From Chloroflexota bacterium (GTDB lineage: Bacteria; Chloroflexota; Limnocylindria; Limnocylindrales; CSP1-4), in contig PLZO01000043.1 in the NCBI GenBank assembly GCA_003152165.1, forward strand, positions 5,967-52,421: a stretch of DNA of 46,455 bases. The letters run 5' to 3'. Positions 12,838 to 32,287 of this stretch are shown one piece after another. Made by a program: the position numbers and the translations under genes. The notes beneath the pieces were generated by a model, which saw only the letters and a list, made by a program, of their open reading frames with translations, was not told the DNA's origin and searched no databases. Numbering within the stretch: position 1 is the first letter of the stretch; every line of letters starts with the position of its first letter.

Positions 12838-12851
12838 CCACCGGCGTTGAC
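12838..12851. repeat. Target-site duplication copy 2 (CCACCGGCGTTGAC)
   Basis: One mismatch to the other two copies; sits exactly between the element B right TIR and the element C left TIR. Confidence 0.88.
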
Positions 12852-12887
12852 GGGGTAGTTGTGGGAGCGACACCGAGTTGCACCCCC
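12852..12887 (+). repeat. Left TIR of element C
   Basis: GGGGTAGTTGTGGGAGCGACACCGAGTTGCACCCCC; 33/36 identity to the reverse complement of 32238-32273. Confidence 0.92.
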
Positions 12888-12982
12888 CTCCGTCGCGGCT
12901 AGTAGATAGACGGCATGCAAGTTGCCGCTACCATCTCAGGGTCGTCTGAATCGCCCGATGGACTGTTCGTCCTTGAGAAGGG

Positions 12983-13519
12983 GTGTTCGTGCTCGAGCTA
13001 GTGATCTTCATTAGCTGCGGCGCTGAGGTCGAGGGCCTGCGTGATGTTGCGGCCCGCGTGCTCCGGGCACTTGAAAATGCCTTTCTTAACGGCCTCAAGA
13101 TCTCCGTCGTCATCCGCAATTGGGACTACCGCGACGAATCACCCGAGGTTGTGAAGACTGGGGAGTTCTCGGCTCGGAGCCTAAGAATGGTTGACTCCTC
13201 GAACGCCGTAATCGGGATCCTCGGACCCAGCGTCCCGCCGGTGACAGCTCTGGAGATCCTACGGGCCATCGAGCGTTTTGCAACCGGGGACGCGGACAAC
13301 GTCTGGCTCTTTGTGGATGCGTCCACACTTGGGCCTGTACACGCGAGGTACCTCGGGAAGATCAAGAGAAAGACCGGCATGGAGGTCGTCTATCAAAAGT
13401 TCATGGGCGATAGCGATTTCCAGGAGAAATTGTTCGTCGCATTGATTCCGTACGTCGTCCGGAAGACCATCCTCGAACGCCAGAACAGCCCTACGCTAGC
13501 GCCTGGGGGGGCTGCGTGA
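12983..13519 (+). CDS. DUF4062-like (TIR/NDT-fold) domain protein
   Basis: The pattern IFISCGAEVEGLRD...RNWD...VDSSNAVIGILG...VTALEILRA resembles DUF4062/TIR-like nucleotide-processing domains. Confidence 0.55.
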   Translation: MFVLELVIFISCGAEVEGLRDVAARVLRALENAFLNGLKISVVIRNWDYRDESPEVVKTGEFSARSLRMVDSSNAVIGILGPSVPPVTALEILRAIERFATGDADNVWLFVDASTLGPVHARYLGKIKRKTGMEVVYQKFMGDSDFQEKLFVALIPYVVRKTILERQNSPTLAPGGAA

Positions 13520-15888
13520 ACACGACGGGGTCTTCCGGATTCCTCCTTGCGATTTTCGACACGACCCGCATGGCGCTGTTCCCGGCAGCGGAGGAACGCA
13601 CGAGGCAAGAGCGTGGCCTAGCTCTCCTACTCGACGCTCGGTTCGCTGACTATCAGCGATTCGCCCCAGAAGCCGGCTGGCCTGGGATAGGTGAGTCCCT
13701 GCCCGGAACCGCATCTTCCGGAGAACGACTCTTGGCGGGATTTACCCTTCTTCTGAGCGGGGCTGACATCGCATCAACGACGCTTACGGACATCGCTGCG
13801 GACGAGACCATCCAAGCCGATGTGAGGTTGGTCGCGAGCATCCTTGGCTCGATCGCGCTTCGAGACGCGGGCCGCCCTGATCTCGCACTCCACCTCCTAG
13901 CCGTTCCCGGGACGGGAACACCGCTTGACCAGGCGCTTGTCGGAATACACCGAGCCGCGGCCGAGTTTGAGCTGGGCGCGGCGGAACGGTCATTGCATCT
14001 GACCTTGGCGGCCGAGAAGCTACTGCGACGAGAGCGCGGCTCCTCGCTTGTGCGCGACACCTTGCGCGAGGTCGTGCGACGTAACGTCAGGGCTTTTACC
14101 GTCGCGACGGGTCGACACGATGTCGCCTTCCGGCAACAGGCCTACAGCCGCCCAGGCGTTCTCGACGAGATCGAGGGACGCGTTGCTTACGGGCTCTCGT
14201 CTTGGCTCGGGCTCGAGTTCGATGGTCAATATGCGGACCCAACCGTGTCATCGCTTCACTTCCAGCAAGAGGACCCCGTAGAGACTCCTCTCACCGCAGC
14301 GCTCCTGCGGGCGGAGGTTCTTGGCGATTGGTATCTGACGAACGAAGCTCGTGGCAGGTTAGGTCGCTACCAGCTCATGAACTCGAGAGGGCAAGCCGGC
14401 CGAAATCCAGTACCGGCGCTGCACCTGCTTCGGCGTGCCGGAGATTCGGCGGCACTGAAGCGGGCGGCGAAGTGGTTTCATGCGGAAGGGCCGCTTCCTC
14501 CACTGCGCGAGTTCGGTGACGTAGTGGCATCGACCCCCTGGACCGATGCGACGGCAAAAGCCGACCTTGCATCCCTTCATGAAGTCGCCGATCTGATGAC
14601 CCCGAAGTTGGCCGAGGTCGCATTGGAGCGACTCATTGGGCAGATGGGCCACTACTTGGAGGGCATTCCAAATTTCAGGCTCGAGACGGATTTGAATGAG
14701 GTCGTGTCTGAGCTTTTGGCTGCGGCCGATACCGGCGACGGACTCGTCGCGCGTCGTTACCTACCCGTCGTCGAGGCGAGTACCGACCCATTAATGCTTC
14801 AAGGGGTAGGTATTGTCCTCAACCGGATCAAGTGGCACCGAGTTGACGAAGTGACCAGGAGCCTTTGGAGTGACTACTGCGCCGAGCATCTGGCTGGGTT
14901 GGACGACCACCGATTCCCCGCTTCGGTTCTTCTAAGATCGCTCCCAATAACCTCCGGGATCCGTCGTTCCGCCATAGACAGTTGGCGCCAGCATCCTGAC
15001 CTGTTGACCGGGGCGAACGCGCTCGCGGTCGATGCATCGTCGAAGCACCTTCGGGACGGCGTCGCGCACCTAGCGCGAACCAACCTGACCGAGACTAGGA
15101 GCGATGCCAAGAGAGGAACGCATGGCTTTGGGACCTATGTCGACGGCCCACTCTTGTTGACGCATCTGTTGCAGGATTACCCAAATCAGACGGGATGGGG
15201 CGACCTGACTGGGTTTCTACTCGATCCGATGGTGGCACCGTCAAAGAAGATCAAGCCCCTCTCCGAGATACTCCGGCGACCTGATACCGTCCCGCCGTCG
15301 GTTCACCGCCGGCTCGCCCGCTGGGTTCGGAAGGAGGTCCGATATGCACAGATTCCCATTGACCCGCCGGAAGCGTTTCGGGGGCTCGTTCTTCGCCTTC
15401 GCTTCTTCTACAAGGGGCGCAGTGCCGAGGCATTGTTGGCAGACCTCCTGACCCTTGCGACCGATGAGAGTCGCGCCGCGAGACACGAAGCCGCAAAGAG
15501 CCTTGCGTTCAGCCTCAGCTTAGTTCCGAGGGACACCGTTCTAACCTTGGGCCTGACTCTTTCGCAAGACAGCGCATGGGAAGTTCGAGCGGCGGCAGCG
15601 AGCGCCCTTGCTCGCATGGCTGGTACGCAGGATGACCCACTAACCCGGCTTGCCTGGGAACGAGTTCGGGCAACGCTGCTCGACCCAGGAGCCGTCGTCC
15701 CTTCGTGGGTACTCAACAGCCTCGCCAATGACGTGACGGTTGAAGTCCCGGCCCAGATCAGATCGGTTATCAACGAACTCTCCGAGCGGCACCTTTCGGC
15801 ATCGGTTCGGGCTGCGGCGAGTCTGTTTTCGGACGCACGATCAGGATCGACCACCAGCGCACGTGAGGCACCTCAAGGCCCTTCCTGA
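13516..15888 (+). CDS. Large alpha-solenoid protein (TPR-like N-terminus, HEAT-like C-terminus)
   Basis: 790 aa, helical; DESRAARHEAAKSL, DSAWEVRAAAASAL and HLSASVRAAA look like HEAT repeats. GTGA-coupled to the upstream gene. Confidence 0.6.
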   Translation: MNTTGSSGFLLAIFDTTRMALFPAAEERTRQERGLALLLDARFADYQRFAPEAGWPGIGESLPGTASSGERLLAGFTLLLSGADIASTTLTDIAADETIQADVRLVASILGSIALRDAGRPDLALHLLAVPGTGTPLDQALVGIHRAAAEFELGAAERSLHLTLAAEKLLRRERGSSLVRDTLREVVRRNVRAFTVATGRHDVAFRQQAYSRPGVLDEIEGRVAYGLSSWLGLEFDGQYADPTVSSLHFQQEDPVETPLTAALLRAEVLGDWYLTNEARGRLGRYQLMNSRGQAGRNPVPALHLLRRAGDSAALKRAAKWFHAEGPLPPLREFGDVVASTPWTDATAKADLASLHEVADLMTPKLAEVALERLIGQMGHYLEGIPNFRLETDLNEVVSELLAAADTGDGLVARRYLPVVEASTDPLMLQGVGIVLNRIKWHRVDEVTRSLWSDYCAEHLAGLDDHRFPASVLLRSLPITSGIRRSAIDSWRQHPDLLTGANALAVDASSKHLRDGVAHLARTNLTETRSDAKRGTHGFGTYVDGPLLLTHLLQDYPNQTGWGDLTGFLLDPMVAPSKKIKPLSEILRRPDTVPPSVHRRLARWVRKEVRYAQIPIDPPEAFRGLVLRLRFFYKGRSAEALLADLLTLATDESRAARHEAAKSLAFSLSLVPRDTVLTLGLTLSQDSAWEVRAAAASALARMAGTQDDPLTRLAWERVRATLLDPGAVVPSWVLNSLANDVTVEVPAQIRSVINELSERHLSASVRAAASLFSDARSGSTTSAREAPQGPS

Positions 15889-16038
15889 TTCGCCTGCAGT
15901 ACGAGACCGACAGCCGGTCCGCCGCGAGAGCTCGCTCAGAGACACATCCTGAAGTCCTGGTAGCACCTCAACGCGGAACACCTCAGGATCGGCCCGCTCC
16001 GGATGAGCCGCGTTCCAGGCGTTCTCCCCACGCTGCCG

Positions 16039-17679
16039 CTACCGCTGGCGACTCGCCATTCGCTGACGGGCAGCCGCAGCAACTGGCTCGACCCCAGTTG
16101 CCCGCAACTCCCGCAACCGAGCGACTCCGGCCGCCTGCATCGCCTCCCACCACATCGGATGCGGCGTTGCGGCTCCCTTCTTGATCTGCCTGCAGTAGCC
16201 GACCGATAGCCCGGTTGCCTCGGCGATGGAGTGGGCGGGCACCCCGGCGAGTGCCGGCAGGATCTCCCGCTCGAACTCGCCTGAGTCCTTCGGCCACGGA
16301 TGGGTCCGCTGCCAGCCACGCGCCTCCGCTACGGTCTCCGATGCCCGCCCGCCGATTCTCGCCCGGCCCGCGCCCGTGAGTACCGTTCGCAATCCGAGTG
16401 CTCGGCGTTCGGCCAGGCTCCGCTCGCCCGTGGCGATGAAGGTTGGGAGGTTCGTTGTGTCGACTGCCGCTCGGCACTCAGCCGAGCATGTCCGCCGGCC
16501 AACGGCTGCCGGACCGCCGCACCAGACGCACCCGCGGGCTACCCGCGAGACGATGTGCGTTGGCTTGCCCTTTGCCCGGGATCCCCGTCCCACGCTCCGG
16601 TTCGAACCACTGATCGGCGTGGGCAATGCTCGGCCGACCGGTCTCTGGTCGTCGAGGCGCCGGGCGACATCCTCAGCGACACGGCCGACGGCCTGCCGCC
16701 ACTCCCGCAGCGTCCCGGCCAGCTCGCACGCGAGCGGCGGGGTGACCCGACACACCCCCTGTCGCGTCTCGTAGAAGTCGCTCGCCGCGAACGCCCGCCC
16801 CTCGAGCAGCCGGAGCACGTACCGATCGACGAGCGGCCGGATCGGCTCCATGAGGTCGGCAGCGAGCGAGTCCCGGTTGAGCTGGTCGGCATGGAGCACG
16901 CCCAATCCTGGGTCGAGCCCGACAATCCTGGAGGCCAGCGTGGCCTCGGTCTCGAGCAGGGCATAGGTGAGATTCAGGAGGGCCTGAGCGGGCGTCGTCG
17001 CGAGCCTGGGACCACCGGTCAGCGCGGAGGCGCGGCTCCCGACAGTCAGCCAGTGGGCCGGGACGCGATCGACGTCGCGCCGGGCGAAGCGCACGGCGAT
17101 CGGCGCCCAGGCCGACCAGTAGGCACCGGCCGCCTGTGCCTCGGCGAGGCGGATCTCGTCCCGGTTCGTGGCCAGGTGGACCCTGGCCGCTGCTGACCTC
17201 ATCGCCACCTCGACCTCATCACTAACCGGTACCGATCGGTCGACGGCCACAAGCGTCTCGGCTTGCCCGGCGACCTTCTCGGCGATGAGACGGCGGGCGA
17301 TGTCGTTGCCCGCGGGCGTGTCGAGGGCCCGGGCCTGGGCCCGTCGGAGCCCGGGCCGATCCGTGCCTTGCGGCCCGAACGCCGCGAGTACTTGCCCATC
17401 GGCGTCGATCTGCAAGTAGCCCGCCCCGATGTCGGCGAGCCAGCGGATCGCATCGAACGTGATCGCCCCGGTGTGCCCGAGGACGACGAGCCGTTTCAGG
17501 CCGCCGGTCGCGCGGTGGACGATCGCCGTCCGACGCTGGCGGCCGATGCCGTCCGCGATCCGGAGGCGGCCGCGCCAAACGCGGACGTCGAGGCCGTAGC
17601 CGGAGAGGATGAGGACCCCGCCGGGGGCGACGAGGGCGGCTGGCCAGGCGGCCAGCGAATCGATAGCCTGAGCTTGCAT
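16039..17679 (-). CDS. cas1: Casposase (stand-alone Cas1 integrase) with C-terminal Zn-ribbon and HTH
   Basis: Cas1 motifs RLAEAQAAGAYW, ALLNLTYALLE, GLDPGLGVLHAD and SLAADLMEPIRP, then CVWC...CSAEC and an HTH (SIAEATGLSVGYCRQIKKG). GGAGG RBS before ATG 17679; no cas2 nearby. Confidence 0.93.
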   Translation of the reverse strand: MQAQAIDSLAAWPAALVAPGGVLILSGYGLDVRVWRGRLRIADGIGRQRRTAIVHRATGGLKRLVVLGHTGAITFDAIRWLADIGAGYLQIDADGQVLAAFGPQGTDRPGLRRAQARALDTPAGNDIARRLIAEKVAGQAETLVAVDRSVPVSDEVEVAMRSAAARVHLATNRDEIRLAEAQAAGAYWSAWAPIAVRFARRDVDRVPAHWLTVGSRASALTGGPRLATTPAQALLNLTYALLETEATLASRIVGLDPGLGVLHADQLNRDSLAADLMEPIRPLVDRYVLRLLEGRAFAASDFYETRQGVCRVTPPLACELAGTLREWRQAVGRVAEDVARRLDDQRPVGRALPTPISGSNRSVGRGSRAKGKPTHIVSRVARGCVWCGGPAAVGRRTCSAECRAAVDTTNLPTFIATGERSLAERRALGLRTVLTGAGRARIGGRASETVAEARGWQRTHPWPKDSGEFEREILPALAGVPAHSIAEATGLSVGYCRQIKKGAATPHPMWWEAMQAAGVARLRELRATGVEPVAAAARQRMASRQR

Positions 17680-17768
17680 GCGGACCAACCTCCGTGTGCC
17701 ATACCCCCGGGCTGTTATCAGCAGTCGCGGGGGTTATTGATGGGCTCTATTTAGATCGGCCCAAATGT

Positions 17769-19058
17769 TTATTCTTTTTCCCGCGGCCCAGCTTTCCCCT
17801 GTGCTTGACCGTCCGATCCTGCCGAGCGGGACGCTGCCGAGCGGGACGCCGCCGCCCGCCCGCCGACGCGCAGCGAATTCGGTTCGGCAAGATGTGCGGG
17901 ATATTTGGCGAAGAAGGCGTCGAGTTTCGCCGCATTCTGGGAACGCATTTCCCGAAGCTCGTCGAACCATTTCGCCCGGGCCCTTGTGCTTCGCATGGCT
18001 CGACGCATCCGGGCAGGTGAATAGTTTTCAGCGACTTCCGGGACCTCGGACCGCAACAGCTTCAGGCTGCGATAGGCGGGGAGAGCTTCCGTTTGCCATT
18101 GCCCCGCCGTGGCCACGATTGCGGAATAGCCCTCTTGGACCTGCTCGCCCCCATGGCGGCGGAACAGGATCCAGACCAGCATGAAGGTGATTCGGTCGAA
18201 CGAGGTCATGGCCGAGAACCATCGGGGGAATGCCCCGAATCCGAACGCACCAGGGCCAAAGGAGTCCTCCGTTGCTTCACTGACGCTGCCGAAGAGCGAA
18301 ACGAAGACTTTCAGCTCGTCGCGATAGCGGATGAGATCGCGGTCCACGGTCGAGGTCAAGACGTCTGACAACCGGTGTGCGGCCGCCAGGGCCGAGATCT
18401 CGAGGAGCGCACCGTCCGCGGGTCCGGCTAACCATGGGTCTGCATCGGGGAGACGGTCCGTCCTGGCTCGCTCCAGGCCGAGTGCCCGCTCGAGGATCTC
18501 GCCGTCGCCCGCGGACTCGGCATTGGCCGCGTCCGGCTCAAAGCCACCAAATCGACCGGCGGCGGTTTCGAGGACAGCCTTGGCGACTGTCGAGTAGGAG
18601 CTCCGGCCGACACGCTTACGGGCTTGGCGCAGCACCTTCACGTCGGTCCGTCCGCCCGCCATGCGGTCGGCAAGGTCATAAATCGAGTCGCTTCCTCCAG
18701 GCGCGTCGATCCGCGCTCGAAGCTCGGCGGTGCTGGCGTCCCTTGACTTCGCCGACTCGCCTAGCAGCGTCCGGACCTTCTCTAGCGACACGTCGTACCC
18801 CGCCCACCAGAGCTCCCACGCGGCAAGAGAGAGCCGCCGGTCTAGAGCGAGGATCCGGGCAAGGGCGAGCAACTGCTCACCCGTACCCCCGGGGTAGACA
18901 GTCTCGGTCCCATGGCCCTTGCCGAGGGGCCGCTGGCTCGGCCTCGGGATGAGCCCGGCACGATGCCATCGGGCGAGCTGGGCGGCGGTGACGTCGAATC
19001 CCGCCGCCGCGGCTAGCCCCAGCAACTCCTCCCGCGACTCCTCGTCCGACGTATGCAC
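17769..19058 (-). CDS. Hypothetical protein with N-terminal MerR-like HTH
   Basis: VTAAQLARWHRAGLIPRP N-terminal motif; 429 aa; upstream of and co-oriented with cas1. Confidence 0.6.
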   Translation of the reverse strand: MHTSDEESREELLGLAAAAGFDVTAAQLARWHRAGLIPRPSQRPLGKGHGTETVYPGGTGEQLLALARILALDRRLSLAAWELWWAGYDVSLEKVRTLLGESAKSRDASTAELRARIDAPGGSDSIYDLADRMAGGRTDVKVLRQARKRVGRSSYSTVAKAVLETAAGRFGGFEPDAANAESAGDGEILERALGLERARTDRLPDADPWLAGPADGALLEISALAAAHRLSDVLTSTVDRDLIRYRDELKVFVSLFGSVSEATEDSFGPGAFGFGAFPRWFSAMTSFDRITFMLVWILFRRHGGEQVQEGYSAIVATAGQWQTEALPAYRSLKLLRSEVPEVAENYSPARMRRAMRSTRARAKWFDELREMRSQNAAKLDAFFAKYPAHLAEPNSLRVGGRAAASRSAASRSAGSDGQAQGKAGPREKE

Positions 19059-19193
19059 GGCGCAATCATACAGGCCTACGCGACGAGGTGCAAGAAGTGC
19101 TGATCACCAAAGTCCACACTTCGCAGCGGCTCGCCCATTAGTGCGGGCCAGGCTCGACCGAGTCGAGCCGATGCGATACATGGAGCCTACCTG

Positions 19194-19658: not shown

Positions 19659-20107
19659 GCCGGGTGCGCGACGATCCGGTCCTGCGCGCCGCAACGCGGG
19701 CTGCCCGTCTCCCGATCGGCGCGGCCTGCGCCGTCTGCGGGCGGATGGCCGCCCTCGTGCCATCGCGCAACGGGCCGCCGATCCTCTGCCAGGACCATGA
19801 TCGGCAGCGCCGGGGTGTCTCGGACCGTGACATCGGGCACGTCGCCCGGCGCCGCAGTTTCGGCAGCCTGACCGTGCTCATGCCCGCGAGCGCCAACGAG
19901 CGGATCGAGGACATGCGGCGCGACCTTGGACTGGCGGACACCCCGGATCCGCTGGGCGACCCCCTGCTCGTTCATGCCGACTACCTCGAGGGTCGGGCGC
20001 TGATCGACCTCCTGTTTGCCGATCACCTCCGCCAACTCGAGGCGCACCTTCGTACCACCTTCGGTGATCGATACTTCGAGGGTGGCCCAGAAGCACCGAT
20101 CGTCTAG
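19655..20107 (+). CDS. Zn-finger / degenerate HNH-like protein
   Basis: CAVC...LCQDH zinc ligands followed by DIGHVARR...LTVLMPASAN, an eroded HNH-like motif. Overlaps both neighbours; sits directly upstream of polB. Confidence 0.5.
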   Translation: MSRVRDDPVLRAATRAARLPIGAACAVCGRMAALVPSRNGPPILCQDHDRQRRGVSDRDIGHVARRRSFGSLTVLMPASANERIEDMRRDLGLADTPDPLGDPLLVHADYLEGRALIDLLFADHLRQLEAHLRTTFGDRYFEGGPEAPIV

Positions 20108-23192: not shown

Positions 23193-23195
23193 CTT

Positions 23196-24580: not shown

Positions 24581-24614
24581 ACTAGGATTATTAGGCCCCA
24601 ATCGCGCGTCCCGA
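24581..24614 (-). promoter_or_regulatory. Very short putative CRISPR leader
   Basis: Only 34 bp separate the cas6e stop from the first repeat; the AT-richer CCTAATAATCCTAGT adjoins the repeat on the - strand. Confidence 0.45.
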
Positions 24615-25316: not shown

Positions 25317-26037
25317 CGTTGGCACCCCCGGATTCGACCAGCACGAGGTCGGCAGGCACGATCATCACGTGGCGGATGCCGCGGGGCAGGAACTCGCGGA
25401 CGGCGAACGCGGCACCCGGGGCGGGCTGATCCGCGATGATCAGCTCGGCCTCGTGCATCGGGCATTCGAGGGCAAGGCGGAGCGGATCGGTCGGCCGGCG
25501 GTCGCGTCCACGAACGACGAACGGCGCGGCCCGGAGCGCTGACTCGAGTCCCGCCTCGCGTAGTGGCGGTCCCAGAGGGGCGCGATCCGGGAGGGCGATC
25601 GGCTCGGCTGGCGGGAACGCCCGCCGGCCGAGGAACAGCGGGAAGCGCGGGGTCCTGAGCGCAGCGAGGATCTGGGCGAGCATGCCGGCATCGCCTTCGA
25701 ACCCGGCGGTGAAGACCGCGTCCGCGAGGTAGGCCCGACGGGACACGATCGGGTCGGAGCTGACTCGAGCCGGCCCGCCGTCGCGGCCGGGGGCGTGGGC
25801 GACGTCAAGGACGGTATGGAAGTCGACCTCAAGACGCCCCGGCCGATCGACTCGCACACCGAACCGGAGGGCGGCAAGGTCGTCGACCGCATCCTCGCGG
25901 CCTCGTCCGAGCGCCGCTGCGACCAGACCGATCACCCCGGACTTCGTCGGTTCCGGCATCGAGTCCCGATCGCCGAAGCGGCTCGCAACGCCCCAGCTCT
26001 GCTGAGGCCCGGCGAGTCGGAGGAGCAGCGTGGTCAT
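25309..26037 (-). CDS. cas5e: Cas5e (CasD)
   Basis: LLLRLAGPQQSWG, PTKSGVIGLVAAALG, RAYLADA and LFLGRRAFPP. Confidence 0.95.
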   Translation of the reverse strand: MTTLLLRLAGPQQSWGVASRFGDRDSMPEPTKSGVIGLVAAALGRGREDAVDDLAALRFGVRVDRPGRLEVDFHTVLDVAHAPGRDGGPARVSSDPIVSRRAYLADAVFTAGFEGDAGMLAQILAALRTPRFPLFLGRRAFPPAEPIALPDRAPLGPPLREAGLESALRAAPFVVRGRDRRPTDPLRLALECPMHEAELIIADQPAPGAAFAVREFLPRGIRHVMIVPADLVLVESGGANDG

Positions 26038-27119
26038 GCCGCGGCCGCGACCGACGCGACCAGCGCGTCGAGGGTCGGGACGCGGTTGGCCTCGAGCGAT
26101 CCGAGCTCGATCTCCCCCAGGGCGACGGCGGCGGTCGTCCGGACGTCTGCATCGCCGTACATCGCGGCCACCGAGTCACGGTAGGCGACCAGGGCGTCGA
26201 CGGACGCCCGGACGAGGTCACGTTGCTCGGTCTGACGGACGGGGGCGACGAAGGCGTTGGCCAGCGAGACGGGTGCACCGTCGCGAACGACGGCTAGTAC
26301 GAACGACGGCGGGTTATGGGCGGCGAACGCGTGCTGTTTGCCCGTCGGGAGCGCTAGGACGGCCGCCCGGATGATCGCAGGCAGGGCAGTCTTGAGGCGC
26401 TCGGCGCCTACCCGCTGCTCGAGCTCACCGAGGTCGATGGCCAGGTATCGGTAGAACGTGGCGCTGTTGAACCCGGTCGACTCGATCATCGCGGCGCCCG
26501 TCTCTTCGGCTCGAGCGAGCTCGTCGAGGGCCGTGAAGTAGTCGAACTCCGCCGCGAGGCGGTGGGTGCTGATTGCGTGGGCGACCGAGCAGGCGCCGTC
26601 GACCCCGACCTCGGGCAGGTCGGCGACCATCCGCCCGAAGAGGGCGAGATCGACCGCGCTCGAGCGGAGGGCAGCACGGGCGGGGCCGCGCATGGCCCCG
26701 AGGTCAGGCTTCGCCGCGGTCAGCGCGTCCCAGTGTTCCCGGGCTAGGGCGGCAAGGGCGTCGGCCTCATCGTCGCCGAGCAGGATCAGGTACTTCGTCT
26801 CGGCGTCGCCTTTCTTCGTATCGCCGACGACGATCCCGGCCGCCTCGAACAGCCGGCTAGCGGCGACGAGGCTCTCGGTGCGCGGGTGCTCCGCGAGCCG
26901 GTCGGCGACGAGCTCCGACACCCGCTTCGTGCGGGTCGAGAGCTCCCCCGGTGGGAGAGCATCCCGAAGGGCCAGGCGCATCGCCCGCTTGAGCGCCTGC
27001 GAGCTGATCCGGGCGCGACGGACGCCCCCGAACATTGCGTCCTTCGGGTTGCCGGTGTCGTCGCGGTTCAGGTTCGCCGGGGCGACATTCTGGAGAATGT
27101 GAAGCTCGAGGAAAGCCAT
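26034..27119 (-). CDS. cas7e: Cas7e (CasC/Cse4)
   Basis: LELHILQ...NLNRDDTGNPK...RARISSQALKRAMR, DLALFGRM, VAHAISTH and DYFTALD. Start ATG 27119 follows AAGGA. Confidence 0.95.
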   Translation of the reverse strand: MAFLELHILQNVAPANLNRDDTGNPKDAMFGGVRRARISSQALKRAMRLALRDALPPGELSTRTKRVSELVADRLAEHPRTESLVAASRLFEAAGIVVGDTKKGDAETKYLILLGDDEADALAALAREHWDALTAAKPDLGAMRGPARAALRSSAVDLALFGRMVADLPEVGVDGACSVAHAISTHRLAAEFDYFTALDELARAEETGAAMIESTGFNSATFYRYLAIDLGELEQRVGAERLKTALPAIIRAAVLALPTGKQHAFAAHNPPSFVLAVVRDGAPVSLANAFVAPVRQTEQRDLVRASVDALVAYRDSVAAMYGDADVRTTAAVALGEIELGSLEANRVPTLDALVASVAAAA

Positions 27120-27157
27120 TGATCGTCGTCCTTCCTTCAGAACAGGGATCGCCGTCG

Positions 27158-27682
27158 TCAGTCGACGTCGGGGAGATTCGCCTGGTCGTCGGTCACCACG
27201 CCCGCAGCCGCGCGGTAGGCGACCGCCCATCGGCGCTGGACGGGCGTGCCGTCGAGCGACCAGCGGCCCAGATCGGCCGCCAAGAGACCCCAGTCGGCCA
27301 GCTTCGCGGCATCGCCGAGCACGTCGACGAGGGCCGCCAGCCGTGTGGGCACGTCCTCGCGTTCCGCTTCGACCACGGCGAGGAAGCGCCGCTCGATCCC
27401 GGGCCGGGTCGCGGGCTCGCGGCTGCGCTCCCCGGCAAGGCGGGGGACTGGGACCCCGGCCCCCGGTTTCGGCGCGGCGCCGACCCGGGCGACGAGAGCC
27501 GCCACATCGAGCCAGTCGCGCTCGTCCCAGCGGGTCATCTCGGGCGGGAGCAGGCGTCCGAGCGGCCCGAGAAGGGCCGACGCGTCTCCCGCACGCAGCG
27601 TCCGGCGGACCTCGCCGAGCGTGCCAGGGTCGGCTGCCAGGCGAGCGAAGACCGCCGCGGCGTGGCCCGGGTTGACCATCAC
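27158..27682 (-). CDS. cse2: Cas11e (CasB/Cse2) small subunit
   Basis: Lies between cas8e and cas7; ERRFLAVV, DWGLLAADLGRW and VQRRWA motifs. Confidence 0.85.
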   Translation of the reverse strand: MMVNPGHAAAVFARLAADPGTLGEVRRTLRAGDASALLGPLGRLLPPEMTRWDERDWLDVAALVARVGAAPKPGAGVPVPRLAGERSREPATRPGIERRFLAVVEAEREDVPTRLAALVDVLGDAAKLADWGLLAADLGRWSLDGTPVQRRWAVAYRAAAGVVTDDQANLPDVD

Positions 27683-27690
27683 ATCCCTCC

Positions 27691-29304
27691 TTAAGCGACA
27701 GCGTCGAGGTAGCGTCTGAGCGCCTGTCGAAAGATCGTCTCCCCCGCGGCGAGTGCGAATGGCTGGGCCGGGAAGGCGGTGAGCGCATCCTCAAAGGCGT
27801 CGCCGGCCGCCCGATCGACGGTCGCGCGCCACCGTCCGAGGATCTCGGCATACCCGGGCGCGACCGCGGCGAGATCGAGAAGTAGTCGGCGGAAGGAGCC
27901 ATCGAGCGCCGACCAGTAGCCACTCGCGCCGCCGAAATGCTCGATCGCCTCCCGCACGCCTGCGCGCACCCGCACCCCGGCAGGCGTGCGCGGTCCCATC
28001 TCGGGCAGGGACGCCGCCTCGGGTTCGAGAAGCTTGTTCAGGGCGCCTGAGCGGAGGAGCGCACGTTCCCCGGCTTCGGCCATCGCGATCGCGATGGCGA
28101 CCACGTCGCGCCGGTTGGCTTCGGCATCGAGGAGAGCGGCGACCGGCGGCGCGAGCATCTCGCGGCGCGTTCCGTGGACCTTGTTCTGGCCGGGTTCGGT
28201 TGCCTGTCCAAGCACCGTCACCGGAAGGACGCCGGCCGCATCCGCGTAGCCGAGTTCGGCGAGGCGGGCGTGGAAGCTCAGGATCCCGGGCCGACGGACC
28301 CGCCCGGCATCGGTCGATGTCCCACCAAGGAGCGCGAGGCTGTCGCGCCAGGCCATCCGGTCACGGCCGAGCTCGACCCGCAGCCACGGGCTCTCGCCCT
28401 CCTTCGGTTTCGCACGCGCACGCAGGGCGACGAACGGGTCCGGCAGGTCTTCGGGGAGCGCAACGCAGGTCTCCCCGTCGAACTCGACCAGCCCGGCCAC
28501 CCACACCACGCCGTGTTCCACGACGGGGACGAACTCGACGGCGCGGCTTCGCCAGGTGAGCAGGTCGAGCAGCCCGTCGGGGTGCCGAGCGCCGGGTCCG
28601 GTCAGCGGCTCGCGCTCCCAGGCCGGTCGGTCACCTGCAGTCGTACCAGCGGGCAGCCCAGCCGCCGGATCGTAGGCCTCCAGGTTCGCGATGAGCGTCG
28701 CGTAGAGGGTCGGTGCGGCGACCATGATAATGGCGTAGCGGGCAGCCGGCGCATCCTTCGCGGCGCGGAACGGGCCGCCGGGCCACTGCGCCTGGGCGCG
28801 CGCCAGGGCAAACGTCTGCCAGGCGACCAAGGCGCGCGCAGCCTCGGCTGGAGATGCCCCGCTGGCTGGCAACCGGTGCTCGAAGAAGACGGGCTTGTCC
28901 GCCCCCGGCCGTTCGGGCACGAGCCTCGCCAAGGACGCGAGCTCCTTCGCCCGCTCGGCCAGCCCAGTAACCTGCCCGAAGGGCCGGGTCGCGTGGAACA
29001 GGTCGAGTCGGTCGTCGACCGCGTCGAGGTAGCGCACGACCGCATCGGGCTCGAACCGGCCCGCATCGCGCAGCGTGGCCCACGCCGCTTCGTCGGTCGG
29101 GCCGCCAACGATCCGGTGACCGAAGGCGACGAGGTAGCGCATCAGGGCGGCGACCACCAAGGGCGAGGAATCGACGACAACGCGCAGTTCGTGCGCCGAG
29201 AGGAAGACCTCGCGAAGGCCGGCCATCCGCGGGCGCCCGGCAAGGTCGGTAACCGCGATCCAGGGTTCGGTGCGAAGGTCGTAGCGCGGACGTTGCGACA
29301 TCAC
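27691..29304 (-). CDS. cas8e: Cas8e (CasA/Cse1) large subunit
   Basis: YDLRTEPWIAV, LDLFHATRPFGQ, SPAEAARALV and LLTWRSR. Confidence 0.92.
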   Translation of the reverse strand: MMSQRPRYDLRTEPWIAVTDLAGRPRMAGLREVFLSAHELRVVVDSSPLVVAALMRYLVAFGHRIVGGPTDEAAWATLRDAGRFEPDAVVRYLDAVDDRLDLFHATRPFGQVTGLAERAKELASLARLVPERPGADKPVFFEHRLPASGASPAEAARALVAWQTFALARAQAQWPGGPFRAAKDAPAARYAIIMVAAPTLYATLIANLEAYDPAAGLPAGTTAGDRPAWEREPLTGPGARHPDGLLDLLTWRSRAVEFVPVVEHGVVWVAGLVEFDGETCVALPEDLPDPFVALRARAKPKEGESPWLRVELGRDRMAWRDSLALLGGTSTDAGRVRRPGILSFHARLAELGYADAAGVLPVTVLGQATEPGQNKVHGTRREMLAPPVAALLDAEANRRDVVAIAIAMAEAGERALLRSGALNKLLEPEAASLPEMGPRTPAGVRVRAGVREAIEHFGGASGYWSALDGSFRRLLLDLAAVAPGYAEILGRWRATVDRAAGDAFEDALTAFPAQPFALAAGETIFRQALRRYLDAVA

Positions 29305-32168
29305 GGGCGCAGACTCCTGATCCCGAGCTCGTCATCGATCCCGGTCCAGCGCAACTCGATCGCGTCGGGTCGGAGCAATCGACCACCGGCACCACGGAAG
29401 AGGGGACGTGCCCGCGCGAGACCGGGTGTCGCGGCAAACGTCGGCGGGATATCGATCCTGATCAGCTCGCGGCCCTGCGGCGAGATCTTACCCTGTCGGC
29501 TACCGGCGGACAGGGCCACGGTCCGCAGGACCGCTTCCCGGGCTAGGCCGGCGGGCAGCCGTCGGGTCCGGGCGAGGTCAAGGGCACTGGCGCCGATCCG
29601 CGGGTGGGCGGGGTCACCTTCGAGGATTGCGACCGTGATCGAGTCGGTCCCGAGTCTCGTCGCGATCGCGAACTCATCGTCGTCGCCCGGATGATGGTAG
29701 AAGGCGACCGGGTCGGGCAGTCGTGACCCGCCGGGCGCTGGTAGCCGGCGGATCGCGGCCAGGGTCATGGCGTCTTTGAGCATGGCCCGGCTCGCGCTGG
29801 CCCCATCGAGCCAGCGCCGCTGCCACGGGGGCGAGAGCCCGTCAGGGGGTCCGGTCTCCGCGTAGACGGCCTCGACGAGCGAGGATACGTCGTCCGGAAC
29901 GCGAAGGTAACCATCGCTCTCCGCGATTAGGTGCTCGAGCGCAAGGAGCGTCCGATCGAGGAGATGGGGGTCGTAGACCGCGGCGCTGCCCCGGTCGTGT
30001 CGGGGGAGCCCGTCGTCGCCCTGATCGGGTTGGACCACGAGTAGGGTGGGTTGCCGCAGCGATCGTGGACGCGACGCGTCGTTCCGCCGATTCCGCTGGA
30101 GTCGACCAGCTCGCTGGAGGAGGAGGTCGATCGGGGCGAGGTCGCTGAGCAGGAGGTCAAAGTCGAGGTCGAGCGACTGCTCGATGACCTGCGTCGCGAC
30201 GAGGACCGAGCCTCCATCTCGGGCGGCACTGCTGCCATAGCGCTTGACGCAGCGGCCCTCACGCTCGAGGCGAGCTGCGAGGGGGAAGCGTGCATGAAAG
30301 AGCTCGACAAGGGTCGGGTCGCCACGCTCGGCCGCGCGGGCTCGCAGGTTGCCAAAGATCGCCTGGGCACCGCTCACCGTGTTCGCGACAAGCCCCACCT
30401 TGCCCCCTTGACGGGCCGCGTCGAGCAGGTCGTCGATAAGGCTTTCGTCGCGACGCGGGTCGCCAGCCCAGACCACGCGGATCGTCCGCCGCGCCGCCCG
30501 GCTGACCTCGAGGGTCGCTGCCCCGCCCCCCGTCGCGGATGCCCAGCTGAGCCTCGGGTAGGCCGGAGCGCCCGAGCCATCGATCGTTGTTTGCGCATCT
30601 CCGCTGTCCAAACCCCCTGAGGTCGCGACCAGGCCCTGCATGAATGAGGCGAGGAGGGCTCGGCGGCGGGCGTCGGGCAGCGTGGCCGAAAGCACGATAA
30701 CGCTCGAGCCAGACGCCGCCAGGTACCCAAGCAGCTGCTCGATGAGCGCGAAAGAATAGGCATCGTAGGCATGAACCTCGTCGAGGATGACGACCTTCCC
30801 GGCGAGCCCGAGCAGCCGGACGAAGGCGTGCGGCGCCGCCAGGACCCCAATGAGAGCTTGGTCGACCGTGCCAACGCCAAACGGAGCGAGGAGCCCACGC
30901 TTGCGACGCGTGAACCAATCAGTCGCCACGACGGCACCGGCGAGTGGACGGTCGGACGAAGCCGCCTCGAGCTGGGCCGGCTCGAGATCGACGGTAGCCG
31001 CCTGCTCCCGACCGAGCTCGAGCAGCTCAGCAAAGTCGGCGTTGAGCTCCCGATTCGCATGGAGCAGCGCGAGCGCGACGAGCTCGGTCGGATATCGACG
31101 GGCAAGCCAGTCGCGCATGCGGCCAAGCATTTGGTTGCTTGTCGCCTGCGTCGGCAGGGCGAAATAGAGCCCGCGATAGCCGGACGCATTGGCCCACCGA
31201 TCGGCCAGGTGGAGGGCCGCCTCGGTCTTGCCCTCGCCGGTCGGAGCCTCGACAAGGGCTAGGGCCGGACCGGTCACGTTGAGTGACAGCTGCTCGACTG
31301 CGCTCTGAAGCGGTCGCGGCTCGAAACCGAAGCTCGACGAGAACGACACCGGTGCATGCCCGGGGTGCCAGCCGCTCCACTCGAGTCGAGAGAGCGCGGT
31401 CTGGGCCCGACTTCGTGCGCGCCGACCGTACCCGACCGGGTCCAGCGCTCCCGCATCGCCGGCGTACTTAAATACGGTCTCATCGGAGGCGATCCAGTCG
31501 CAAACCGAGACGATGCCCGCAAGTAGGAGGGCGCCGATCCACGAAATCCGGGTCGGGACTCCTTCCCCAAGACCAACGAACTCGGCGGTGTGTCCGATCA
31601 GCTCCGCGCGCGCATCCGCCCAGGTCGGTCCGCCTGCTTGCGCCGTCCCGCTGGGCGCCGTTCGGAAGGGGACCCCGTGATGACCTCCGATCACCGTAGC
31701 GATGACGACCGCCTGAGGGCGGCCGACACCGCGCTGCACGAGCTCCTCGACGAGGAACTGTCCAGTGAGCGCCCCGTGCGAGACGGTCGAGGAGCCGAAC
31801 CCGCGGCCTGGATCGTCGAGTTGGGCGGCAGACAAGCGGTCGCGGTGGTCGAGGACCCCGGGCAGCACGCGCCACTGAAATGCCGGGCTCGCCTTGCCCA
31901 GGTCGTGGAGGCCACAAAGGTAGGTCAGCCATGACCGCGTGCCACCGGGGGTCAGCCCGAGGTCAGCTGCGATCGCGCCAAGAACAGGCTCGGGGACGAC
32001 CCGGTCTACGAACGCCTCGGTTGTCGCCGCCGTGTCGAGCGCATGGCACAGCAACGGGTGAAACCCATGGCTGCCGTCCCCGACCTTGCCCCAGATTGCG
32101 CTGAGAGACGGGGACCCGCCTGCACTGTCTCGGATGTCCCATGCCCTCCCCGGGGTTCGGCGGGCCAA
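29301..32168 (-). CDS. cas3: Cas3 HD nuclease-helicase
   Basis: LLCHALD, LHDLGKASPAFQ and GHHG (HD domain); APTGEGKT, DEVH, SAT and QRAGRLQR (helicase). Confidence 0.96.
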   Translation of the reverse strand: MARRTPGRAWDIRDSAGGSPSLSAIWGKVGDGSHGFHPLLCHALDTAATTEAFVDRVVPEPVLGAIAADLGLTPGGTRSWLTYLCGLHDLGKASPAFQWRVLPGVLDHRDRLSAAQLDDPGRGFGSSTVSHGALTGQFLVEELVQRGVGRPQAVVIATVIGGHHGVPFRTAPSGTAQAGGPTWADARAELIGHTAEFVGLGEGVPTRISWIGALLLAGIVSVCDWIASDETVFKYAGDAGALDPVGYGRRARSRAQTALSRLEWSGWHPGHAPVSFSSSFGFEPRPLQSAVEQLSLNVTGPALALVEAPTGEGKTEAALHLADRWANASGYRGLYFALPTQATSNQMLGRMRDWLARRYPTELVALALLHANRELNADFAELLELGREQAATVDLEPAQLEAASSDRPLAGAVVATDWFTRRKRGLLAPFGVGTVDQALIGVLAAPHAFVRLLGLAGKVVILDEVHAYDAYSFALIEQLLGYLAASGSSVIVLSATLPDARRRALLASFMQGLVATSGGLDSGDAQTTIDGSGAPAYPRLSWASATGGGAATLEVSRAARRTIRVVWAGDPRRDESLIDDLLDAARQGGKVGLVANTVSGAQAIFGNLRARAAERGDPTLVELFHARFPLAARLEREGRCVKRYGSSAARDGGSVLVATQVIEQSLDLDFDLLLSDLAPIDLLLQRAGRLQRNRRNDASRPRSLRQPTLLVVQPDQGDDGLPRHDRGSAAVYDPHLLDRTLLALEHLIAESDGYLRVPDDVSSLVEAVYAETGPPDGLSPPWQRRWLDGASASRAMLKDAMTLAAIRRLPAPGGSRLPDPVAFYHHPGDDDEFAIATRLGTDSITVAILEGDPAHPRIGASALDLARTRRLPAGLAREAVLRTVALSAGSRQGKISPQGRELIRIDIPPTFAATPGLARARPLFRGAGGRLLRPDAIELRWTGIDDELGIRSLRP

Positions 32169-32237
32169 GAATTCCTAAGAAACACAGCCTAGTCCTGCTA
32201 GGGACCGGTCAAGGCACTGTTATCTCCTGACGAGCGA

Positions 32238-32273
32238 GGGGGTGCAACTCGGTGTCACTCCGGCAACTACCCC
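32238..32273 (-). repeat. Right TIR of element C
   Basis: Reverse complement GGGGTAGTTGCCGGAGTGACACCGAGTTGCACCCCC pairs with 12852-12887. Confidence 0.92.
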
Positions 32274-32287
32274 CCGCCGGCGTTGAC
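32274..32287. repeat. Target-site duplication copy 3 (host-side junction)
   Basis: CCGCCGGCGTTGAC; housekeeping genes begin 87 bp later. Confidence 0.9.

What the first reader, a model, noticed from the sequence alone, without database searches (positions are those of the whole stretch)
12852..32273. Casposon carrying a type I-E CRISPR-Cas system whose only Cas1 is the casposase
Seen: 36-bp TIRs (33/36) and 14-bp TSDs enclose cas1, polB and HTH/HNH-like genes together with cas3-cas8e-cas11-cas7-cas5-cas6e and a 22-spacer array; there is no cas1/cas2 between cas6e and the array. Established: casposons are Cas1+PolB transposons proposed as ancestors of CRISPR adaptation, and type I-E operons normally end in cas1-cas2. 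Inference: this is a self-synthesising transposon that delivers CRISPR immunity. It places a casposase beside an effector module, the arrangement postulated for the origin of CRISPR-Cas, although here probably by secondary capture. I do not know a described casposon with this cargo, but I cannot search the literature.
Basis: partly seen in the sequence, partly recalled or inferred. Interest (0 to 1): 0.95.

Follow-up and report, generated by a model that had tools for sequence, protein, structure and literature searches.

The report
Casposon carrying a CRISPR interference module
A self-replicating Cas1 transposon in a peat-soil bacterium carries a complete type I-E CRISPR attack module and spacer array but no spacer-acquisition genes, and it is the last in a row of sister elements that carry other anti-phage systems.

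Summary
A 36-nt inverted repeat (33/36) at 12852-12887 and 32238-32273, flanked by a 14-bp direct repeat (13/14), encloses a Cas1 gene, a divergent family-B polymerase, cas3-cas8e-cas11-cas7-cas5-cas6e and a 23-repeat array. There is no I-E cas1 or cas2 here or elsewhere in the 92%-complete assembly. No HNH gene was found. In a tree the Cas1 falls in a clade of PolB-linked Cas1 proteins, apart from I-E and other CRISPR Cas1. New context: the element is the last unit of a tandem row of at least four casposon-type elements, all at the same 14-bp target in the sufU promoter. Its neighbours and relatives carry type I restriction-modification, AbiJ, Thoeris or ApeA genes in the cargo slot where this one carries CRISPR-Cas. 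No Cas6e homologue was found in 400 other genomes of the host's class. The array looks old and static (10 of 23 repeats mutated). Best reading: an autonomous casposon that captured an interference-only I-E module. The casposase is very unlikely to serve adaptation. Because every unit reuses one target, the duplication does not prove that the cargo moved with the element. I found no published casposon with CRISPR-Cas cargo.

The parts
1..2204 (.). Right part of tandem element C. It starts at contig position C86:129, upstream of the window. Its TIRs begin GGGGTAAAG. It holds an HsdR C-terminal part (26-1324) and an AbiJ-like gene (1324-2145).
   Evidence: The TIR end at about 2175-2204 was read.
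2205..2218 (+). Copy of the 14-bp target, CCGCCGGCGTTGAC, at the junction of elements C and A.
2219..12837 (.). Tandem element A, a non-autonomous casposon derivative. TIRs 2219-2249 and 12807-12837. Genes: hsdS 3347-4162(-), hsdM 4549-5934(-), hsdR 6110-8494(-), UDG 8554-9348(-), N-terminally truncated polB 10395-12308(-). No Cas1.
   Evidence: The TIR pattern has 2 matches against 0 in 100 shuffles. The PolB remnant is 42% identical to residues 447-1040 of the intact PolB, E=5e-116. Pfam and PADLOC hits.
12838..12851 (+). Left copy of the target site duplication of element B, CCACCGGCGTTGAC.
12852..12887 (+). Left TIR of element B.
   Evidence: I3, 36 nt, 92%.
12983..15888 (+). Left-end cargo of about 61% G+C: orf178 (12983-13519) and a 790-aa HEAT-repeat protein (13516-15888). 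Function unknown.
   Evidence: G+C; HEAT_2, below cut-off; nearest Atlas cluster is named DUF4062-containing, score 0.93; a lead only.
16039..17688 (-). Casposase: a Cas1 domain followed by a C-terminal Cys-rich segment and a conserved tail. Database gene calls give 546 aa.
17769..19058 (-). orf429, a conserved hypothetical protein with a weak MerR-like N-terminal HTH. Homologues lie next to Cas1 in 5 of 80 related metagenome loci.
20016..23192 (+). Family-B DNA polymerase fused to a C-terminal HTH. Likely starts are 20082 or 20235, from database gene calls of 1036 and 985 aa.
23196..24580 (-). CRISPR array: 23 repeats of 29 nt (13 perfect, 10 with 1-3 edits) and 22 spacers of 26-35 nt. It is read in the same direction as the cas operon.
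24581..24614 (-). 34-nt gap between the cas6e stop and the first repeat. It ends in ..TAGT, like the sequence before the first repeat in canonical I-E loci. This is where cas1-cas2 normally sit.
24615..25325 (-). cas6e
   Evidence: PF08798, E=7.7e-54, profile 1-223/223.
25309..26037 (-). cas5e
   Evidence: PF09704, E=1.4e-42.
26034..27119 (-). cas7e
   Evidence: PF09344, E=5.1e-111; TIGR01869; PADLOC Cas7e.
27158..27682 (-). cas11 (cse2)
   Evidence: PF09485, E=1.8e-13.
27691..29304 (-). cas8e (cse1)
   Evidence: PF09481, E=1.7e-74.
29301..32168 (-). cas3, with HD nuclease, helicase and C-terminal domains all matched.
   Evidence: PF18019 at 1-207/207, PF22590, PF00270.
32238..32273 (-). Right TIR of element B.
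32274..32287 (+). Right copy of the target site duplication. It overlaps the -35 hexamer of a promoter-like site (TTGACG 32283-32288, TACGAT 32307-32312) in front of sufU (32374-32823).

Best explanation
Element B (12852-32273) is an apparently autonomous casposon. It belongs to a large, mostly uncultured bacterial casposon family: a Cas1 with a C-terminal extension, a divergently transcribed PolB-HTH gene, TIRs that begin GGGGTA, and a 14-bp duplication. The casposase inserts at one specific site, a 14-bp sequence overlapping the -35 box of the sufU promoter. Each insertion regenerates that site, so elements pile up in tandem. In this family the segment between the 3' end of polB and the adjacent TIR is a cargo slot that usually holds anti-phage genes. 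In element B that slot holds a type I-E interference module (cas3, Cascade genes, cas6e) and a 22-spacer array. The module derives from a canonical I-E locus from outside the host's class and has lost cas1-cas2. Inferred function: Cas6e processes the array transcript, Cascade finds matching invaders and Cas3 degrades them. That gives a fixed, inherited immune memory that the host cannot update. The casposase and PolB serve only transposition and replication of the element. Shown: the anatomy, the family relationships, the tandem reuse of the target, and the absence of I-E elsewhere in the sampled class. Inferred: present activity of the casposon and of interference, and mobility of the composite as one unit.
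For: TIR, TSD and gene content. Cas1 tree of 68 rows: the window Cas1 lies in a 25-row clade (SH-aLRT 99) made of homologues, 15 of which are taken from loci that also hold PolB. It is separate from 12 I-E Cas1 (support 100) and 31 other CRISPR Cas1. NCBIfam: it passes only the generic cas1 model, gets no hit to the I-E model, and falls far below every subtype cut-off. PolB relatives lie beside Cas1 relatives in 48 of 80 metagenome loci, 44 of them in the window's divergent arrangement, and in 3 of 3 related genomes fetched. PF03175 is hit by 18 of 27 PolB homologues. The invariant alignment columns follow the ExoI-III and A/B/C motif order of family-B polymerases; the motif names are recalled. 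Tandem row: five copies of the target with TIR ends on both sides, and similar junctions in G082, G401, G317 and one metagenome contig. Cargo slot: element A holds hsdRMS and UDG behind its polB remnant. G082 holds hsdM, hsdR, UDG and Fic; G401 holds hsdR, Mrr and hsdM-S. Among 56 ORFs lying behind polB in 19 metagenome loci there are Thoeris, ApeA and AbiEii families. The two TIRs of B match each other (33/36) and differ from the A-type and C-type TIRs of the neighbouring units. Foreign origin of I-E: a Cas6e homologue was found in 1 of 401 class genomes, the own one, and I-E Cas1 in 0 of 15 genomes of the own family against 22 of 301 in the phylum. Canonical origin: in 12 of 12 phylum I-E loci cas6e directly precedes cas1, and the array, with a related repeat, begins within about 100 nt of the end of the preceding ORF (a stop codon 20-70 nt before the first repeat where I could read one) after ..AGT or ..GGT, as in the window. 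Static array: 10 of 23 repeats are mutated and two spacers are shortened to 26 and 29 nt. All cas genes are open and match their profiles end to end. Assembly: the contig is 127,813 bp. Cas1, PolB, Cas7 and the truncated PolB each list a longest contig of 188,660 bp in the protein collection, and both PolBs one of 38,326 bp. Contigs of 4 runs from 4 studies cover all 30 bins, the listed pieces carry 0-1 differences, and one piece (24533-25900) bridges the cas6e-array joint.
Against: No second copy of a casposon with I-E cargo was found: 0 of 80 metagenome loci and 0 of 3 related genomes. The contig lengths listed for the closest Cas7 relatives (10,050 and 8,998 bp) match none of those listed for the closest Cas1 or PolB relatives. 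The TSD is uninformative about unit mobility because all tandem units share it. The polB stop lies 3 nt from the last repeat and only 34 nt separate cas6e from the first repeat, so both array ends look like deletion joints. No promoter-like site was found for the cas operon or the array by the simple scan. No spacer target was found. No HNH gene was found, and no reference casposases of families 1-4 could be put in the tree.
Confidence: 0.7

Rival explanations
1. A composite formed in place, not cargo that moves. Two neighbouring units of the tandem row, a Cas1-PolB casposon and an I-E-bearing TIR element or island, were fused by a deletion that removed the inner TIRs and one target copy. The present 19.4-kb unit has never transposed as such.
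For: All units share one target, so flanking TSDs prove nothing. Both ends of the array abut neighbouring genes (3 nt and 34 nt). Deletion derivatives exist in the same row: element A lacks Cas1 and the N-terminal 446 residues of PolB. No second copy of the composite was found.
Against: The two outer TIRs are each other's best match (33/36), whereas adjacent units have other TIR types. The I-E block occupies exactly the slot where relatives carry cargo. I-E genes were not found in any other sampled genome of the class, so a resident host locus is unlikely. Even if it formed this way, the result is a TIR-bounded unit that the encoded casposase could move.
Confidence: 0.2
2. The casposase, alone or with host factors, also inserts spacers into the array, so the element would be a working analogue of the proposed proto-CRISPR.
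For: It is the only intact Cas1-family gene in the 92%-complete assembly. It lies 5.5 kb from the array inside one mobile unit. Contigs in runs X3 and X4 show other spacers between window-type repeats (table 5c), but the matching sides are only about 21-22 nt of repeat.
Against: No Cas2 was found. The Cas1 is far from I-E Cas1 in the tree. Repeat and spacer sizes are those of ordinary I-E arrays, and related repeats occur in 12 of 12 canonical loci that have cas1-cas2. Ten of 23 repeats carry mutations, which continuing leader-end duplication would tend to renew (the expectation is inference from established I-E adaptation). The region where canonical loci have cas1-cas2 and their short leader is reduced to 34 nt. 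The variant-spacer contigs may come from any organism with this common repeat type.
Confidence: 0.03
3. CAST-like use: Cascade guides casposon insertion to a crRNA-specified site.
For: It is a transposon-borne type I system without an adaptation module, as in Tn7-like CASTs (review PMC11656645, passages read).
Against: cas3 is present, with full HD and helicase matches. No spacer matches the own genome or the attachment region: the best self-hit is 22 nt with mismatches. Sister units without any CRISPR use the same target.
Confidence: 0.02
4. Assembly artefact: the MAG contig wrongly joins a casposon and a CRISPR locus from different genomes.
For: The genome is a 177-contig MAG. Repeats (TIRs, the array) are classic break and mis-join points. 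No listed Logan piece bridges the polB-array joint or the TIR ends.
Against: The contig is 127,813 bp. Cas1, PolB, Cas7 and the neighbouring truncated PolB all list a 188,660-bp longest contig (that these are one contig is inferred from the equal length). Depth is even, about 3-10 in nearly all bins (the two bins over the array range from 0.3 to 16, and the last bin over sufU runs higher), in 4 runs of 4 studies. One contig piece bridges the cas6e-array joint.
Confidence: 0.03

Closest known systems
Bacterial (family 3) casposons (Krupovic et al. 2014, PMC4046053; passages read)
   Same: A Cas1 integrase plus a family-B polymerase, TIRs (25-602 nt reported), a TSD (median 15 nt reported), a bacterial host, variable cargo, and Cas1 fused to extra zinc-binding or HTH domains in some members.
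   Different: No HNH endonuclease gene was found here, though HNH is reported in all family 2 and 3 members. The PolB hits the protein-primed type Pfam family PF03175. The cargo is a CRISPR-Cas effector module with an array. I could not place it against reference family 1-4 sequences.
Tandem family 2 casposons of Methanosarcina (Krupovic et al. 2016, PMC4779613; passages read)
   Same: [quoted passage not shown] One copy is often inactivated. The authors compare this to Tn7 islands.
   Different: Here there are at least four units with three TIR types, most are non-autonomous, and each carries a different defence system. The host is bacterial and the target is a promoter rather than a tRNA gene or an intergenic site.
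CRISPR-associated transposons (Tn7-like and Mu-like CASTs; review PMC11656645, passages read)
   Same: A type I CRISPR-Cas system without an adaptation module inside a cargo-carrying DNA transposon.
   Different: CASTs mostly lack Cas3 or its nuclease activity and use crRNA to choose the insertion site. Here cas3 is intact, the transposase is a Cas1 homologue rather than TnsABC, and targeting is by a fixed sequence shared with CRISPR-less sister elements.
Plasmid- and phage-borne CRISPR-Cas lacking cas1-cas2 (same review)
   Same: A mobile element carries an interference module and array but no adaptation genes. Such systems may borrow a host adaptation machinery in trans.
   Different: Here the carrier is a casposon, and no compatible host Cas1-Cas2 was found in the assembly or in the sampled class.
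Pipolins as defence islands (PMC11551731; passages read)
   Same: PolB-encoding integrative elements whose cargo is dominated by defence systems.
   Different: Pipolins use tyrosine recombinases and a primer-independent PolB. That study found a lower defence-gene density in the 48 reference casposons than in pipolins, unlike the family seen here.

Membership tests
Casposon (superfamily) | Cas1-family integrase that is not part of a CRISPR adaptation module and groups apart from CRISPR Cas1 | tested here: met
   Tree of 68 rows: a 25-row PolB-linked clade (SH-aLRT 99), separate from 12 I-E and 31 other CRISPR Cas1. Only the generic NCBIfam cas1 model is passed. PDB hits to 4n06 and 6opm at about E=1e-18, and none to any I-E Cas1 at E<=0.001. 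Reference casposases of families 1-4 were not in the tree.
Casposon (superfamily) | Family-B DNA polymerase gene in the element | tested here: met
   PF03175 E=1.5e-5, at 24.5 bits against a cut-off of 25.8. 18 of 27 homologues hit PF03175, best E=4.8e-7. Invariant columns follow the Exo I-III and A/B/C motif order. PolB is linked to Cas1 in 48 of 80 loci. No significant PDB sequence match. A fold test was not possible.
Casposon (superfamily) | Terminal inverted repeats | tested here: met
   36 nt, 33/36.
Casposon (superfamily) | Target site duplication | tested here: met
   14 bp, 13/14. The exact 14-mer occurs only at element junctions in the assembly. Caveat: the duplication is shared by all tandem units.
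Casposon (superfamily) | No other transposase or integrase gene in the element | tested here: met
   No integrase or transposase family was hit in the ORFs of 12852-32273 that were scanned.
Casposon family 2/3 | HNH endonuclease gene | tested here: not met
   No HNH family hit in any ORF tested. Short or divergent HNH proteins could have been missed.
Type I-E CRISPR-Cas | cas3, cas8e, cas11, cas7e, cas5e and cas6e | tested here: met
Type I-E CRISPR-Cas | cas1e-cas2e adaptation module next to cas6e | tested here: not met
   34 nt lie between cas6e and the array. TIGR03638 and PF09707 were not found in the assembly; the PF09707 control rang in only 1 of 14 control genomes, so the Cas2 search is weak. 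In 12 of 12 canonical phylum loci cas1 follows cas6e.
Type I-E CRISPR-Cas | 29-nt partly palindromic repeats with spacers of about 32-33 nt | tested here: met
   23 repeats; spacer lengths are 33 (9), 32 (5), 34 (5), 35, 29 and 26. Related repeats occur in 12 of 12 canonical loci.
CRISPR-associated transposon (CAST) | Loss of the Cas3 nuclease and a spacer directing insertion | tested here: not met
   cas3 gives full-length matches. No spacer matches the own genome.

The most novel reading that the evidence does not exclude
The casposase of this element, the only intact Cas1 in the cell, can integrate DNA at the adjacent I-E array. Alternatively, Cascade influences where or when the casposon moves. 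Either way the element would be a living example of a casposon functionally coupled to a CRISPR effector module, the step proposed for the birth of adaptive immunity. A milder form is more likely: the 19.4-kb composite transposes as a unit and is how type I-E immunity entered a bacterial class in which it was not otherwise found.
Probability: 0.04. Interest if true: 0.97.

Novelty: new variant of a known kind. Interest (0 to 1): 0.78.

Why it matters
Casposons are held to be the source of the CRISPR adaptation module. The standard scenario needs a casposon to land beside an effector module. Here the two are found inside one pair of casposon ends. A December 2024 review of CRISPR in mobile elements lists viruses, plasmids, Tn7-like and Mu-like transposons as carriers and mentions casposons only as ancestors. 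If the composite moves, casposons join the vehicles that spread CRISPR immunity, here into a lineage where I-E was not otherwise found.

The locus also gives a natural test bed. One can ask whether a casposase tolerates, ignores or acts on a CRISPR array, and how an array evolves without adaptation genes.

Separately, the tandem row shows that bacterial casposons can build a defence island by repeated insertion at one promoter-embedded target. Non-autonomous units carry restriction-modification and abortive-infection genes. This differs from the low defence content reported for the 48 reference casposons.

Tried and rejected
Empty site by synteny. The 1.5 kb upstream of the sufU target in 11 same-genus genomes shares nothing with the window's left flanks. 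The upstream flanks of the two cleanest unoccupied sites (G009, G010) are not syntenic with each other or with G000. A strict empty-site comparison was therefore not possible. Of the 11 loci, 6 lack any TIR-like end before the target, 4 carry an A-type end and 1 a C-type end.

Search for other casposons with I-E cargo.
- Genome contigs with the single Cas1 gave 2 loci.
- Metagenome contigs gave 80 loci, with 0 I-E genes and 0 arrays.
- Viral contigs gave none for the Cas1 alignment and none for Cas7.
- Matching contig lengths between the closest Cas7, Cas1 and PolB relatives gave no shared contig.

Spacer targets. There was no full-length match in the own genome or in any fetched locus. One spacer searched in viral contigs gave 0 matches.

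Reads and contigs.
- No listed Logan piece bridges the polB-array joint or either TIR end.
- Many 'joints' have sides of about 20-25 nt and probably come from other organisms or repeats.
- Loose ends at 32374/32375 come from relatives whose likeness starts at the sufU start codon, so they are not empty sites.
- No RNA holder was listed.

PDB sequence and profile searches gave only insignificant hits.

Other negatives. Rfam and tRNA scans of the window found nothing. orf219 (19104-19763, minus strand) looks like a wrong-frame ORF. The crude GC3 gene caller missed known genes, so I used it only to pick ORFs for scanning.

Papers. I found no paper describing a casposon with CRISPR-Cas effector or array cargo in six full-text searches. 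I read passages only, never whole texts, of PMC9939771, PMC4046053, PMC11551731, PMC4779613 and PMC11656645. PMC5665730, the 2017 casposon review, is not held. Supplementary tables of the 2014 and 2016 casposon papers list every element and its genes.

Full report
WHAT IS THERE. Its arms are 12852-12887 and 32238-32273, 36 nt, with 33 of 36 positions complementary. Directly outside lie CCACCGGCGTTGAC (12838-12851) and CCGCCGGCGTTGAC (32274-32287), matching at 13 of 14 positions.

Between the arms, reading left to right:
- a low-G+C pair of unknown genes (orf178 and a 790-aa HEAT-repeat protein; 61% G+C against about 70% elsewhere);
- a 549-aa Cas1 on the minus strand (PF01867, E=6.9e-38);
- a conserved 429-aa hypothetical protein;
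- a roughly 1000-aa polymerase on the plus strand with a C-terminal HTH;
- a CRISPR array of 23 repeats and 22 spacers;
- on the minus strand, cas6e, cas5, cas7, cas11, cas8e and cas3, each with full-length profile matches.

The cas6e stop is 34 nt from the first repeat, and the polB stop is 3 nt from the last. The I-E Cas1 model (TIGR03638) and the I-E Cas2 model (PF09707) find nothing in the own 92%-complete, 177-contig assembly. The Cas2 control rang in only one of 14 control genomes, so that negative is weak. The only Cas1-family genes are this one and a broken copy, 72% identical with one TGA, on contig C158. I found no HNH gene.

IS THE CAS1 A CASPOSASE? It passes only NCBI's generic cas1 model. 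It does not hit the I-E model and falls far below every subtype-specific cut-off. Against solved structures it matches two Cas1-family chains, 4n06 and 6opm, at about 1e-18, and no I-E Cas1 at E<=0.001. From memory, 6opm is the Methanosarcina casposase.

Its homologues are numerous in metagenomes: 694 proteins at E<=1e-10 among the candidates scored. Of 80 metagenome loci fetched with a Cas1 alignment, 48 also hold a relative of the polymerase, and 44 of those have the window's divergent arrangement. The other 32 are mostly short contigs. Three related genomes (G082, G401, G317) show the same gene pair.

In a maximum-likelihood tree of 68 Cas1 proteins, the window protein sits in a 25-row clade with SH-aLRT 99 on a long stem. 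Fifteen of those 25 rows come from loci that also hold PolB. The clade is separate from 12 I-E Cas1 (support 100) and 31 other CRISPR Cas1 from the same phylum, one of which lies beside an array in a genome of the same family. The tool warns that long branches meet, and no published reference casposases could be included. The placement 'not I-E, not with ordinary CRISPR Cas1' is therefore firm, but the family number is open.

THE POLYMERASE. The Pfam hit to PF03175 is just under its cut-off (24.5 against 25.8 bits). Even so, 18 of 27 homologues hit that family. The columns invariant across the 27 sequences follow the order of the exonuclease I-III and polymerase A, B and C motifs of family-B enzymes (the motif names are from memory).

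THE UNEXPECTED CONTEXT: A TANDEM ROW. The window's left flank ends in a sequence that recurs just before the sufU target in four same-genus genomes. A pattern built from it matches twice in the window, at 2219-2249 (plus strand) and 12807-12837 (minus strand), against 0 matches in 100 shuffles. These two sites are the TIRs of a second element, A (2219-12837), and another copy of the 14-bp target precedes it at 2205-2218.

Element A has no Cas1. It carries a polB remnant that is 42% identical to residues 447-1040 of the intact enzyme (E=5e-116), a type I restriction-modification system and a uracil-DNA glycosylase.

Upstream on the contig there is a further target copy at C86:115. It is preceded by another A-type TIR end and followed by a third TIR type that begins GGGGTAAAG. 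That TIR's partner ends at window 2204, which defines element C, carrying HsdR and AbiJ genes. Contig C158 holds a fifth target copy followed by an A-type TIR, a 1212-aa cyclase/STAND/TPR protein and the broken Cas1. It may be the unit that runs off the start of C86.

In the whole assembly the exact 14-mer occurs only at these junctions. The right-hand copy overlaps the -35 hexamer of a promoter-like site in front of sufU. Similar [TIR end][about 14 bp ending GTTGAC][TIR start] junctions occur in G082, G401, G317 and one metagenome contig. Tandem casposons sharing a TSD are known from Methanosarcina (PMC4779613).

CARGO SLOT. In element A the cargo lies behind the 3' end of polB, towards the TIR. 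The same holds in G082 (hsdM, hsdR, UDG, Fic) and in G401 (hsdR, Mrr, hsdM-S). I also scanned 56 long ORFs taken from up to 5 kb behind polB in 19 metagenome loci. This set certainly includes some host genes and wrong frames. Among its hits were Thoeris ThsA and ThsB, ApeA, AbiEii, SNF2 and three further Cas1 genes, the last pointing to tandem neighbours. In element B the same slot holds the array and the I-E operon. So the CRISPR-Cas module sits where this family keeps exchangeable defence cargo.

WHERE THE I-E MODULE COMES FROM.
- A Cas6e homologue (E<=1e-20) was found in only 1 of 401 genomes sampled from the class, and that one is the own genome.
- I-E Cas1 occurs in 22 of 301 genomes of the phylum and in 0 of 15 genomes of the own family.
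- The nearest Cas7 proteins in 5.8 billion are 89%, 76% and 63% identical, and the rest are at most 55%.
- In 12 of 12 canonical I-E loci of the phylum, cas6e is immediately followed by cas1. An array with a closely related repeat begins within about 100 nt of the end of the preceding ORF; where I could read a stop codon it lies 20-70 nt before the first repeat. The array is preceded by ..AGT (..GGT in one), and the window's 34-nt gap ends ..TAGT.

The simplest history is a canonical I-E locus that lost cas1-cas2 cleanly.

STATE OF THE ARRAY. Thirteen repeats are perfect and ten carry 1-3 edits, scattered along the array. Two spacers are shortened to 26 and 29 nt. Two pairs of spacers (S16/S21 and S19/S20) are variants of the same protospacer region, as expected from past genuine adaptation. 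No spacer matches the own genome, the related casposons or, for the one spacer tried, IMG/VR. I read this as an old memory that is no longer renewed. That reading is inference.

ASSEMBLY. The window lies inside a 127,813-bp contig. In the protein collection the identical Cas1, a PolB member, the Cas7 and the truncated PolB of element A each list a longest contig of 188,660 bp, and both PolBs list one of 38,326 bp. That these are single contigs is inferred from the equal lengths.

Twenty public runs from 14 studies, mostly labelled peat metagenomes, hold part of the stretch. Contigs of four of them, from four studies, cover all 30 bins at similar depth. The listed pieces carry 0-1 differences, and one piece bridges the cas6e-array joint. 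None of the listed pieces bridges the polB-array joint or the TIR ends.

HOW IT MOST LIKELY WORKS. The casposase recognises the TIRs and the 14-bp target. Insertion duplicates the target, keeps the sufU promoter intact and recreates a site for the next element. PolB presumably replicates the excised or integrated element. The I-E genes and array provide interference against a fixed set of invaders, which benefits both host and element.

Nothing indicates that the casposase feeds the array, or that Cascade guides insertion. cas3 is intact, and sister elements without CRISPR use the same site.

The main uncertainty is whether the 19.4-kb composite has ever moved as one piece, or whether it arose in place by fusion of neighbouring units. 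The shared target makes the TSD silent on this. The matched B-type TIR pair and the cargo-slot position favour a true cargo, but no second copy was found.

NOVELTY. Six full-text searches and passages from five papers turned up no casposon with CRISPR-Cas cargo. These included a 2023 casposon review and a December 2024 review of CRISPR in mobile elements. The 2017 casposon review and all supplementary tables could not be read. I rate the finding a new variant of a known kind: a casposon with a new and conceptually pointed cargo, in a defence island built by tandem casposition.

A relative's polymerase, on a contig of the same length as G082:C3, is named by NCBI as from a 'Candidatus Dormibacteraeota' MAG. 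The host lineage is therefore probably of that group. That is inference only.

Noticed in passing
window 1-12851, plus contig C86:1-5966 (L131) and contig C158 (L130): A tandem row of at least four casposon-type units at one 14-bp target. They have three TIR types and carry two type I R-M systems, AbiJ, UDG and a cyclase/STAND/TPR gene. Only element B has intact Cas1 and PolB.
   Followed up: yes
window 32283-32312: The casposon target overlaps the -35 hexamer (TTGACG) of a promoter-like site in front of sufU. The duplication keeps a complete promoter next to the gene.
   Followed up: partly
L128 (G007:C1:960600-980599) with L009: A closed same-genus genome has an element of about 10 kb at the same sufU site, flanked on both sides by TCCGGAGCGTTGAC and starting GGGGTAGT. 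No Cas1 or PolB was detected by tblastn, so it is probably a non-autonomous relative.
   Followed up: partly
L127 (G008:C11), about 3.7 kb upstream of sufU: A fragment 68-69% identical to the C-terminal domain of the casposase (residues 448-523), beside an A-type TIR end. It looks like a decayed casposon at the same site in another species.
   Followed up: no
L126 (G317:C5), about 3770-3860: A junction of an A-type TIR end, a 14-bp spacer and a B-type TIR start (similar to the window's TIR). The B-type unit shows no Cas1 or PolB within 8 kb.
   Followed up: no
window 12983-15888: orf178 and the HEAT-repeat protein have 61% G+C and no family assignment. The nearest Atlas cluster for the large protein is named DUF4062-containing (score 0.93). 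This may be a further defence gene pair at the left end of the casposon.
   Followed up: partly
window 23258-23660 (spacers S16/S21 and S19/S20): Two pairs of spacers are diverged versions of the same protospacer region, which suggests repeated past acquisition against related invaders.
   Followed up: no
L130 (C158) 1-2703 and 2864-6499: Two adjacent units each carry a large zinc-ribbon / nucleotide cyclase / AAA (STAND-like) / TPR protein, 76% identical at the DNA level over 1.8 kb. This is a candidate defence gene duplicated by tandem insertion.
   Followed up: partly
G000:C8:9364-9828 (L015): A stand-alone homologue of the casposase C-terminal domain (32-43% identity, residues about 366-523), with in-frame TGA codons, away from any casposon.
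   Followed up: no
table 5c (runs X3, X4): Contigs in other peat samples carry different spacers between repeats of the window's type. Either other arrays share this repeat or the array varies between populations.
   Followed up: no
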